From: Eledone cirrhosa
Lineage: Eukaryota
Direction: 5' to 3'
Length of the DNA stretch: 64,000 nt
NCBI GenBank assembly: GCA_964016885.1
Contig: CAXHJY010000736.1
Coordinates: 141,174-205,173, forward strand
The translations under genes were made by a program, and so were the position numbers. Positions 20,515 to 23,874 of the stretch are shown here, piece by piece. Below the pieces are notes generated by a model that was not told the DNA's origin, did no database searches, and saw only the letters and a program-made list of their open reading frames with translations. Every line of letters starts with the position of its first letter. Within the stretch, counting starts at the first letter, position 1.

Positions 20515-23500
20515 ATATATTAGAAAGATCGAGTATCGAAAAATCGGCGCACGAGTTCACGATAAACGAAATTCGATATGAGCGGCAGAGGGCTCAATAA
20601 TTCAGATGAATCAGAGCTATAACTATCGTTAAAATACCGTCACATATAGAACAAGTCTACAATCAACCATACGATTTAAAATCGATAGAGGAAGATTCGG
20701 GCCAAACAGATAAAAAATATCAATAAAACAATACGTCAATAATTTAAATGAATGTAAAATCATACCCGGACCCACTAGACAGGTGTTAAATCTAGCTTCA
20801 TGGGTTTCTGTAAATCCTTAGACTGTATTCTATCAGCTCACATATAAATATAAAAGCCTACTAGAGTAAGCGGAACGGAGGTTTACTTTCTCAACGAGTT
20901 TTTTCCTGGCGGCAGAGGAGCCAACTACCAGTGAAAAACGCACATGGCATTAGACAAGGGAGATGACCCCTATATCCGCGAAAACAATTCGAGTGAATGT
21001 GGAAATACACATATCGAATTAGAGTGCTCAATAGACATGTTAAAATAAAACAAAAGCTATTCATCACTCAATAGAATCGACAAAATATGAGCAATAAAAT
21101 TAACTGGTGGATAGCTATGTCCAGAGCTAAATATATTAGAAAGATCGAGTATCGAAAAATCGGCGCACGAGTTCACGATAAACGAAATTCGATATGAGCG
21201 GCAGAGGGCTCAATAATTCAGATGAATCAGAGCTATAACTATCGTTAAAATACCGTCACATATAGAACAAGTCTACAATCAACCATACGATTTAAAATCG
21301 ATAGAGGAAGATTCGGGCCAAACAGATAAAAAATATCAATAAAACAATACGTCAATAATTTAAATGAATGTAAAATCATACCCGGACCCACTAGACAGGT
21401 GTTAAATCTAGCTTCATGGGTTTCTGTAAATCCTTAGACTGTACTCTATCAGCTCACATATAAATATAAAAGCCTACTAGAGTAAGCGGAACGGAGGTTT
21501 ACTTTCTCAACGAGTTTTTTCCTGGCGGCAGAGGAGCCAACTACCAGTGAAAAACGCACATGGCATTAGACAAGGGAGATGACTCCTATATCCGCGAAAA
21601 CAATTCGAGTGAATGTGGAAATACACATATCGAATTAGAGTGCTCAATAGACATGTTAAGATAAAACAAAAGCTATTCATCACTCAATAGAATCGACAAA
21701 AAATGAGCAATAAAATTAACTGGTGGATAGCTATGTCCAGAGCTAAATATATTAGAAAGATCGAGTATCGAAAAATCGGCGCACGAGTTCACGATAAACG
21801 AAATTCGATATGAGCGGCAGAGGGCTCAATAATTCAGATGAATCAGAGCTATAACTATCGTTAAAATACCGTCACATATAGAACAAGTCTACAATCAACC
21901 ATACGATTTAAAATCGATAGAGGAAGATTCGGGCCAAACAGATAAAAAATATCAATAAAACAATACGTCAATAATTTAAATGAATGTAAAATCATACCCG
22001 GACCCACTAGACAGGTGTTAAATCTAGCTTCATGGGTTTCTGTAAATCCTTAGACTGTACTCTATCAGCTCACATATAAATATAAAAGCCTACTAGAGTA
22101 AGCGGAACGGAGGTTTACTTTCTCAACGAGTTTTTTCCTGGCGGCAGAGGAGCCAACTACCAGTGAAAAACGCACATGGCATTAGACAAGGGAGATGACC
22201 CCTATATCCGCGAAAACAATTCGAGTGAATGTGGAAATACACATATCGAATTAGAGTGCTCAATAGACATGTTAAAATAAAACAAAAGCTATTCATCACT
22301 CAATAGAATCGGCAAAAAATGAGCAATAAAATTAACTGGTGGATAGCTATGTCCAGAGCTAAATATATTAGAAAGATCGAGTATCGAAAAATCGGCGCAC
22401 GAGTTCACGATAAACGAAATTCGATATGAGCGGCAGAGGGCTCAATAATTCAGATGAATCAGAGCTATAACTATCGTTAAAATACCGTCACATATAGAAC
22501 AAGTCTACAATCAACCATACGATTTAAAATCGATAGAGGAAGATTCGGGCCAAACAGATAAAAAATATCAATAAAACAATACGTCAATAATTTAAATGAA
22601 TGTAAAATCATACCCGGACCCACTAGACAGGTGTTAAATCTAGCTTCATGGGTTTCTGTAAATCCTTAGACTGTACTCTATCAGCTCACATATAAATATA
22701 AAAGCCTACTAGAGTAAGCGGAACGGAGGTTTACTTTCTCAACGAGTTTTTTCCTGGCGGCAGAGGAGCCAACTACCAGTGAAAAACGCACATGGCATTA
22801 GACAAGGGAGATGACTCCTATATCCGCGAAAACAATTCGAGTGAATGTGGAAATACACATATCGAATTAGAGTGCTCAATAGACATGTTAAGATAAAACA
22901 AAAGCTATTCATCACTCAATAGAATCGACAAAAAATGAGCAATAAAATTAACTGGTGGATAGCTATGTCCAGAGCTAAATATATTAGAAAGATCGAGTAT
23001 CGAAAAATCGGCGCACGAGTTCACGATAAACGAAATTCGATATGAGCGGCAGAGGGCTCAATAATTCAGATGAATCAGAGCTATAACTATCGTTAAAATA
23101 CCGTCACATATAGAACAAGTCTACAATCAACCATACGATTTAAAATCGATAGAGGAAGATTCGGGCCAAACAGATAAAAAATATCAATAAAACAATACGT
23201 CAATAATTTAAATGAATGTAAAATCATACCCGGACCCACTAGACAGGTGTTAAATCTAGCTTCATGGGTTTCTGTAAATCCTTAGACTGTACTCTATCAG
23301 CTCACATATAAATATAAAAGCCTACTAGAGTAAGCGGAACGGAGGTTTACTTTCTCAACGAGTTTTTTCCTGGCGGCAGAGGAGCCAACTACCAGTGAAA
23401 AACGCACATGGCATTAGACAAGGGAGATGACCCCTATATCCGCGAAAACAATTCGAGTGAATGTGGAAATACACATATCGAATTAGAGTGCTCAATAGAC

Positions 23501-23874
23501 ATGTTAAAATAAAACAAAAGCTATTCATCACTCAATAGAATCGACAAAAAATGAGCAATAAAATTAACTGGTGGATAGCTATGTCCAGAGCTAAATATAT
23601 TAGAAAGATCGAGTATCGAAAAATCGGCGCACGAGTTCACGATAAACGAAATTCGATATGAGCGGCAGAGGGCTCAATAATTCAGATGAATCAGAGCTAT
23701 AACTATCGTTAAAATACCGTCACATATAGAACAAGTCTACAATCAACCATACGATTTAAAATCGATAGAGGAAGATTCGGGCCAAACAGATAAAAAATAT
23801 CAATAAAACAATACGTCAATAATTTAAATGAATGTAAAATCATACCCGGACCCACTAGACAGGTGTTAAATCTA
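20515..23874. repeat. Tandem array of a 616-bp non-coding unit, ~5.4 copies
   Basis: tagaaagatcgag recurs at 20521, 21137, 21753, 22369, 22985 and 23601. Units differ at only a few positions. TA-flanked. Confidence 0.97.

What the first reader, a model, noticed from the sequence alone, without database searches (positions are those of the whole stretch)
20515..23874. 616-bp array with an A-B-A-B-A dimeric pattern and no canonical ribozyme
Seen: two linked variants alternate strictly. Units 1, 3 and 5 have gatgacCcc and gttaaAata (e.g. 20968 C, 21044 A). Units 2 and 4 have gatgacTcc and gttaaGata (21584 T, 21660 G; 22816 T, 22892 G). The true period is therefore 1232 bp. The array starts at the unit's internal atatat, stops mid-unit and is TA-flanked. 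Inference: copying of a dimeric circular template (RNA or DNA) by a rolling-circle mechanism. I found no CTGANGA core, so processing may use a different or unknown ribozyme, or splicing.
Basis: partly seen in the sequence, partly recalled or inferred. Interest (0 to 1): 0.75.

Follow-up and report, generated by a model that had tools for sequence, protein, structure and literature searches.

The report
Retrozyme with a disguised hammerhead ribozyme
This array is one of thousands of scattered insertions of a roughly 600-base non-coding repeat whose every unit carries an unusual, likely self-cutting hammerhead RNA motif that standard searches miss; it was probably copied from a single-unit RNA circle, and the A-B-A-B-A alternation is peculiar to this one copy.

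Summary
The array (5.45 x 616 bp) and the two linked alternating variants are real. It is one of at least 2,905 insertions of a 600-630-bp superfamily with one fixed end in (TA)n and one variable end. The ribozyme is not unknown: the minus strand of each unit holds a type I hammerhead with a U3-A8 core (UUGAGAA), a 79-nt stem II region and a long stem III. Rfam misses it; it is kept across families 52% identical, its stems covary, and 6,493 copies match genome-wide (control 13). In an unbiased sample 17 of 80 variable ends fall just downstream of the predicted cut. Arrays carry one haplotype in all units (up to 26), as expected from repeated copying of a monomer. Strict alternation was seen in 0 of 16 other arrays of four or more units and the B unit is private, so a dimeric template is possible (~0.3) but a later two-unit duplication is likelier. 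No RNA or cleavage data. The scan noted other U3-A8 retrozyme families in this genome, not this one. Verdict: new variant of animal non-LTR retrozymes.

The parts
20515..23874 (-). Retrozyme insertion, 5.45 head-to-tail 616-bp units; inferred RNA sense is the minus strand (fixed 3' end at 20515, truncated 5' end at 23874)
20764..20899 (-). Unit 1 type I hammerhead variant: stem I 5' strand 20899-20895, core U3-A9 20894-20888, G12 at 20808, GUC triplet, predicted cut between 20769 and 20768, stem I 3' strand 20768-20764
21380..21515 (-). Unit 2 hammerhead; predicted cut 21385/21384
21996..22131 (-). Unit 3 hammerhead; predicted cut 22001/22000
22612..22747 (-). Unit 4 hammerhead; predicted cut 22617/22616
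23228..23363 (-). Unit 5 hammerhead; core 23358-23352, stem II strands near 23350-23341 and 23281-23274, stem III hairpin 23259-23239, predicted cut 23233/23232
23162..23166 (-). Competing helix strand (shown for unit 5; one per unit), about 66 nt 3' of the cut, that pairs with the stem I 3' strand; covaries between families
21584..21660 (+). B-type variants of unit 2 (21584T, 21660G); outside the ribozyme
22816..22892 (+). B-type variants of unit 4 (22816T, 22892G)
20293..20514 (.). (TA)n target tract at the fixed end (likely priming site)
23875..24128 (.). (TA)n tract at the variable end
3498..3984 (-). Separate sub-monomer insertion of related subfamily B (76% identical), same polarity, hammerhead present

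Best explanation
The array is one insertion of a dispersed, non-coding repeat superfamily whose units each carry a U3-A8 type I hammerhead motif; the RNA likely self-cleaves once per unit, likely closes into a 616-nt circle, and is likely copied round and round into TA microsatellites by a borrowed reverse transcriptase, probably Penelope-like. Shown: dispersal, polarity, TA targeting, conserved and covarying motif, one haplotype per array. Inferred: minus-strand transcripts are cut at GUC; 3' fragments (cut to TA tail) give the abundant 0.4-unit copies; monomers are ligated, and in the circle a downstream helix blocks the ribozyme; nicked (TA)n primes at the unit's AUAUAU and synthesis runs 0.04-26 rounds before joining the second TA end by microhomology. 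The A-B-A-B-A pattern is most likely a later duplication of a two-unit block (about 0.65), less likely a dimeric circle (about 0.3) or an assembly fault (about 0.05).
For: Fixed end: 36 of 38 other arrays start at unit positions 1-7 against (TA)n; 2,905 such ends genome-wide, control 1. Motif: core letters kept in whole-unit alignment of six families 51-86% identical found by homology; descriptor hits all 5 window units, 2 of 300 shuffles, none antisense; 6,493 genome matches vs 13 control; 92.3% of cells paired, 34 two-sided changes, 0 of 500 shuffles as high, slid controls 17-44%. The isolated motif's minimum-energy fold is the three-way junction. 17 of 80 closed variable ends lie at unit 236-254, cut at 254; at most 8 in any other 19-nt window, and better TA-like sites have 0-2. 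75 of 83 shared variants fixed in all units of an array, none in a subset; a 26-unit array carries two changes not seen in the other youngest-type arrays in every unit. Internal junction spelled identically 159 of 162 times (overlapping loci counted). TSD-like duplications 15 of 115 vs 1-6 in shuffled pairs. U3-A8 and an extra base before stem II are described for PLE hammerheads (PMC4209133 passages).
Against: No RNA, circle or cleavage data. With 60 nt of upstream context stem I has predicted probability 0.14 or less even in a growing transcript, in all 5 families folded; position 10.1-11.1 is A.A or C.A, and 5 of 20 rows have U3.G8, so activity may be weak; 8 of 9 predicted Xenopus retrozymes did not cleave in vitro. 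The end hotspot sits 7-15 nt short of the cut and could be an RT pause. No Penelope footprint: 0 of 110 and 0 of 89 insertions (overlapping sets) have an inverted arm, and no homology to an autonomous element in 1.06 Mb of held loci. Strand transfer on terminally redundant linear RNA would give the same arrays. Dimeric circles with identical halves would be invisible, so the alternation count has limited power.
Confidence: 0.72

Rival explanations
1. Same retrozyme, but this insertion was copied from a dimeric (1232-nt) A+B circle made by incomplete self-cleavage of a two-unit transcript.
For: Perfect linkage and period 2 over five units; residual circular dimers form in vitro and multimers exist in axolotl RNA (PMC7229834 passages); the ribozyme is predicted to fold poorly; the 3 remaining single-unit changes in 5.45 units equal the family mean of 0.59 per unit.
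Against: 0 of 16 other arrays with four or more full units (153 units) alternate; each B variant has 3 exact matches genome-wide, two here and one at separate unlinked loci, so no source unit is in the assembly; L040 and L055 show linked private variants in adjacent units, i.e. later unit duplication does occur; unit 1 also has two private changes.
Confidence: 0.3
2. No circle: linear, terminally redundant or multimeric transcripts are copied with repeated strand transfer, the ribozyme only setting 5' ends or being a relic, as in Penelope pseudo-LTR tandems or Chlamydomonas MRC1.
For: Hotspot of ends near one site fits a linear 5' end; ribozyme cleavage was not needed for PLE insertion in vitro (PMC11167929); head-to-tail non-autonomous PLE derivatives without hammerheads are described (PMC8557442 passage).
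Against: Arrays of 16-26 identical units without scars at the cut site (189 of 193 identical spellings) would need many flawless jumps; unit length 590-633 and fold are kept across 52% identity.
Confidence: 0.15
3. Mobilised by a LINE (the RTE-like, TA-inserting elements in this window) rather than a Penelope-like enzyme.
For: Single arm and single start site in subfamilies A-E, unlike the two-armed 310-bp retrozyme in the window; APE-RT LINEs abut (TA)n here.
Against: No shared 3' tail with those LINEs; internal priming and the U3-A8/extra-base core are PLE traits; family F shows two starts about 7 nt apart.
Confidence: 0.3
4. DNA rolling-circle (Helitron-like) element or local satellite.
For: One fixed end with variable other end is also known for rolling-circle DNA transposons (recalled); the plus-strand unit ends in CTAA after a small palindrome.
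Against: Strand-specific hammerhead conservation, G.U-tolerant fold on one strand, TSD-like duplications, thousands of dispersed short insertions.
Confidence: 0.04

Closest known systems
Metazoan non-LTR retrozymes (Cervera and de la Pena 2020, PMC7229834, passages read; Li, Clavereau and Pollet, bioRxiv 10.64898/2026.07.22.740005, parts 1-3 of 5 read)
   Same: Non-coding, low-GC, head-to-tail units each with a type I hammerhead; dispersed; long TSDs; PLEs in the same genome.
   Different: Unit 600-630 bp (150-450 bp in the first paper; 51-972 bp in the second); U3-A8 core, 76-81-nt stem II region, 31-38-nt stem III, A.A/C.A next to the core; ribozyme predicted blocked in the circle, which PMC7229834 reports for plant retrozymes and viroids but not for most animal ones.
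Hammerheads of Penelope-like elements, notably Schistosoma Cercyon U3-A8 variant (PMC4209133, passages read)
   Same: U3-A8 covariation, extra base between 9 and 10.1, long helix II, 4-5-bp helix I.
   Different: Those are minimal motifs without a real helix III in pLTRs of coding elements; here helix III is long, there is a further invariant A before G12, and no ORF is attached.
Non-autonomous Chlamys/MRC1 and Naiad PLEs (PMC8557442, passages read)
   Same: Head-to-tail multicopy insertions, 5' truncation, microsatellite targets.
   Different: Those lack canonical hammerheads and share 3' ends with an autonomous partner; none found here.
HDV-like ribozyme retroelements
   Same: A superficially similar helix order in subfamilies A-E.
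   Different: P1, L3 and P2 not met and not conserved in F-I.

Membership tests
Hammerhead ribozyme, type I | Core U4 G5 A6, A9, G12 A13 A14, A15.1-U16.1, H17 | tested here: met
   positions 4-6 in 20 of 20 complete rows, A9 in 19 of 20, 12-17 in 21 of 21; 10 of 21 rows were picked by a pattern that demands the core, but the homology-found families show it too
Hammerhead ribozyme, type I | Watson-Crick pair between positions 3 and 8 | tested here: met
   U3-A8 in the window and 15 of 20 rows; U3.G8 in 5; canonical C3-G8 in none
Hammerhead ribozyme, type I | Three helices around the core with helix I open | tested here: met
   96.0, 87.6 and 93.9% of cells paired; two-sided changes in each helix
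Hammerhead ribozyme, type I | Paired 10.1-11.1 directly on the core | tested here: inconclusive
   A.A or C.A, equivalent to a G-C pair with one extra base on each side; such mismatches also occur in other hammerheads in the held loci; effect on activity unknown
Hammerhead ribozyme, type I | Self-cleavage | not testable with these tools
   Only the indirect end hotspot; folding in context argues for weak activity
Metazoan non-LTR retrozyme | Tandem non-coding units, each with a type I hammerhead, no LTR/PBS | tested here: met
   no ORF of 100 aa inside the array
Metazoan non-LTR retrozyme | Dispersed mobile copies with long TSDs | tested here: met
   TSD evidence suggestive only (15 of 115) because targets are microsatellites
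Metazoan non-LTR retrozyme | Expressed as unit-length linear and circular RNA | not testable with these tools
   No run on record as RNA was listed
Non-autonomous Penelope-like element | Homology to the pLTR of an autonomous PLE | tested here: inconclusive
   None in the window or 1.06 Mb of held loci; whole genome not screened
Non-autonomous Penelope-like element | Inverted second arm or 30-40-bp tail from two start sites | tested here: not met
   0 of 110 and 0 of 89 with an inverted arm; one start in 36 of 38; two starts about 7 nt apart in family F only
HDV-like ribozyme | 7-bp P1, conserved L3, P2 pseudoknot | tested here: not met

The most novel reading that the evidence does not exclude
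A 600-nt, viroid-style switchable retrozyme superfamily whose genomic copies record the RNA chemistry itself: 5' ends pile up at the in-vivo cleavage site, near-perfect arrays with one site flickering between two bases in scattered units (5 of 13, 5 of 14, 5 of 26) record one damaged circle read many times, and this array records a dimeric circle; it is moved by an enzyme different from the one that makes the two-armed retrozyme insertions in the same genome.
Probability: 0.25. Interest if true: 0.7.

Novelty: new variant of a known kind. Interest (0 to 1): 0.45.

Why it matters
Rolling reverse transcription of ribozyme-made RNA circles into animal genomes has been proposed but not shown. This family offers very young, perfect arrays up to 26 units, a predicted cut site matched by an excess of insertion ends, and a conserved blocking helix, so cleavage, circularisation and the partner enzyme can be tested directly. 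It also shows that at least 6,493 hammerhead motifs in one genome escape Rfam and CUGANGA searches, so retrozyme counts are underestimates.

Tried and rejected
Rfam: no ribozyme hit in the unit at E up to 10, none at gathering in the window, none in units of six related loci among the 150 rows shown of 240; the same search finds the 310-bp family's hammerhead at E 0.0035. Strict CTGANGA, HDV-like and twister descriptors: no consistent hit; hairpin, pistol, hatchet and twister-sister were compared by eye from recalled consensus only. HDV-like pseudoknot: lost in family F. Splice-donor-like GTAWG after the cut: 20 non-GT matches were 18 point mutants, one microhomology deletion and one other junction, no spliced copy; not kept in F-H. 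Initial reading of the end hotspot as a transcription start: not excluded, but superseded by the cut site. Hotspot at unit 107 (6 of 38) did not recur in the unbiased sample. Coding remnant: blastx against four local RT proteins E 0.016 or worse. Allelic or empty site of this locus: none among 40 scored candidates. Sequencing runs: no RNA holder listed; contigs of seven runs gave no information on expression or on the B variants; one 615-nt self-joining contig in X7 fits a tandem repeat as well as a circle. Look-ups of earlier findings by sequence returned nothing. Eight paper searches showed no paper on this family; the library is partial and no supplements were read, which may bear on known core variants.

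Full report
Observation. The array spans 20515-23874 with a 616-bp period (2732 of 2744 matches at lag 616; 2124 of 2128 at lag 1232). Units 2 and 4 share two changes (unit positions 454 and 530); units 1 and 3 carry three further private changes. Both flanks are (TA)n. The description is correct.

It is a mobile family, not a local satellite. A search of the 3.0-Gb own genome gave 682 candidates, 40 scored. Of the 38 other arrays fetched, 36 begin at unit positions 1-7 directly against (TA)n and end anywhere, at 1.0-13.4 units; the two exceptions are one duplicated locus. A pattern for the fixed end matches 2,905 places, control 1. In 89 of the first 100 such places, 55 are shorter than one unit and 34 longer. 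One fixed end and one truncated end is the polarity of target-primed reverse transcription, which makes the window's minus strand the RNA strand (inference). That strand also folds better as a circle in all five families tried (z -2.2 to -4.6 against -0.1 to -2.7, only 8 shuffles each). Duplications containing non-TA letters flank 15 of 115 insertions against 1-6 in shuffled pairs; microsatellite targets make this suggestive only.

The ribozyme. Rfam and a CTGANGA descriptor find nothing, while both find the hammerhead of the 310-bp array in the same window. Iterated homology searches gave subfamilies at 74-98% identity and distant families F, G, H at 51-67%, all about 590-633 bp. Their alignment keeps three short blocks, which together form a type I hammerhead: stem I, UUGANAA, a 76-81-nt stem II region, GAAA, a 31-38-nt stem III, GUC, stem I. 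A descriptor allowing U3 hits all five window units on the minus strand, none on the plus strand and 2 of 300 shuffles; the isolated motif folds into the three-way junction with stem I at probability 0.7. A pattern for the core alone matches 6,493 places, control 13. On 21 rows (10 picked by that pattern, one truncated) 92.3% of cells pair, 34 cells change on both sides, and no shuffle of 500 reaches this; slid controls give 17-44%. Position 3-8 is U-A in 15 and U.G in 5 of 20 rows; the bases flanking stem II are A.A or C.A. U3-A8 and an extra base before stem II are described in Schistosoma PLE hammerheads (PMC4209133, passages); mismatches at 10.1-11.1 are tolerated in some natural hammerheads (PMC3088659, passages). 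So the core is a known rare variant in an unusual, expanded architecture.

Is it active? Not shown. For: of 80 closed variable ends (9 of 89 ran off the fetched DNA and were dropped; one end was moved by hand from 225 to 241), 17 lie at unit positions 236-254, just 3' of the predicted cut at 254; no other 19-nt window holds more than 8, mean 2.0, and better TA-like sites hold 0-2. These would be full copies of the 3' cleavage fragment. Against: the ends fall 7-15 nt short of the cut and could mark an RT pause or a transcription start, and with upstream context stem I is predicted at 0.14 or less in all five families folded. A second helix 16-66 nt downstream takes the stem I 3' strand, covaries with it and dominates in the circle (0.57-0.88). 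Such blocking is reported for viroids and plant retrozymes and not for most animal ones (PMC7229834 passage).

What was the template? In 37 arrays, variants shared between arrays were fixed in all units 75 times, in one unit 8 times and in a subset never; 5 private variants were fixed in all units. The youngest subfamily has arrays of 16, 16, 6, 13, 18, 10 or more and 26 units, two of them without a single difference, and the 26-mer has two own changes in every unit. New haplotypes therefore pass through a monomer that is copied repeatedly: a circle, or less likely repeated strand transfer. Three arrays show one site changed in scattered units (2,4,6,7,10 of 14; 5,9,10,12,13 of 13; 20,22-25 of 26). 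One reading is misincorporation opposite a damaged base on one circle read many times (the pairing of oxidised G with A is recalled, not tested); local turnover or consensus error is not excluded.

The alternation. None of 16 other arrays with four or more full units (153 units) alternates, although dimers with identical halves would be invisible. Each B variant has three exact matches in the genome: two here and one at a separate locus without the other variant. L040 carries two private variants in an internal 616-bp segment present twice, which shows later duplication, and four more arrays have adjacent pairs. Two changes in one unit are unremarkable here, since unit 1 has two. A two-unit duplication after insertion is thus the simpler account (about 0.65); a dimeric circle from a source unit absent from this assembly remains possible (about 0.3). 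No allele of the locus was found.

The enzyme. Retrozymes are proposed to use PLEs (PMC7229834; bioRxiv 10.64898/2026.07.22.740005), and a PLE protein starts internally at two sites in vitro (PMC11167929). PLE-like ORFs (classed by recalled motifs; Pfam gave only a weak RT hit) and APE-RT LINEs lie in this window. Earlier scan notes on two-armed retrozymes prompted a test: no inverted arm in 110 scored insertions (8 unscored) or in 89 (sets overlap), and no homology to a coding element in 1.06 Mb of loci. I put a PLE at about 0.65 and a LINE at about 0.3.

Verdict. A new variant of the animal non-LTR retrozymes: known class, known core swap, unusual size, architecture, blocking helix and single-armed insertions. 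The scan has noted other U3-A8 families of 320 and 591-595 bp in this genome (seen after I had found the motif); look-ups by sequence found none like this one. No expression data were available. Interest 0.45.

Noticed in passing
window 50818-56660: 310-bp hammerhead retrozyme (canonical CUGAUGA core) as two back-to-back arms of 5.8 and 13 near-identical units in (TA)n
   Followed up: partly
window 28973-30839: 2.9 copies of a 645-bp unit directly upstream of the 1085-aa LINE ORF on the minus strand; no hammerhead core found; may be 5' promoter monomers
   Followed up: partly
window 25508-28765 (-) and 33085-35118 (+): APE-RT LINE ORFs with a PHD finger directly behind the RT domain match (Pfam PF00628); tails of (CAT)n/(GAT)n against (TA)n
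   Followed up: no
window 37821-40589 (+), inverted 5' copy 36251-37520: Intact 922-aa Penelope-like ORF with C-terminal GIY-YIG-like motif and typical inverted truncated copy
   Followed up: partly
window 44475-47050 (+) and 19052-20278 (-): Neptune-like PLE (by recalled motifs), 5'-truncated, with a 97% identical fragment beside the array and decaying tandem repeats at its 3' end
   Followed up: partly
window 5806-8976 (-); 3' fragments 24127-24290 and 32207-32439: RTE-like LINE with (TAGA)n tail inserted in TA tracts
   Followed up: no
L062; G000:C1 44.27-44.28 Mb (L186-187); G000:C1 119.98-120.00 Mb (L386, L392): Near-perfect arrays with one site changed in five scattered units each
   Followed up: partly
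L047 and L065: Same locus present twice (contig C1483 and C2), array lacking the fixed end and joined to other DNA at unit position 138
   Followed up: partly
L068, L209, L328: Stuttered repeats of a few element bases at insertion ends, suggesting repeated re-priming by the RT
   Followed up: no
held loci, e.g. L317:669-723 (-), L151:574-724 (-), L023:553-639 (+): Many other hammerhead types in flanking repeats, including a second U3-A8 type and motifs with U.U, C.A or A.A next to the core
   Followed up: no
window 35456-35897: Long inverted repeat (about 440 bp, 88%) resembling a foldback or MITE-like element
   Followed up: no
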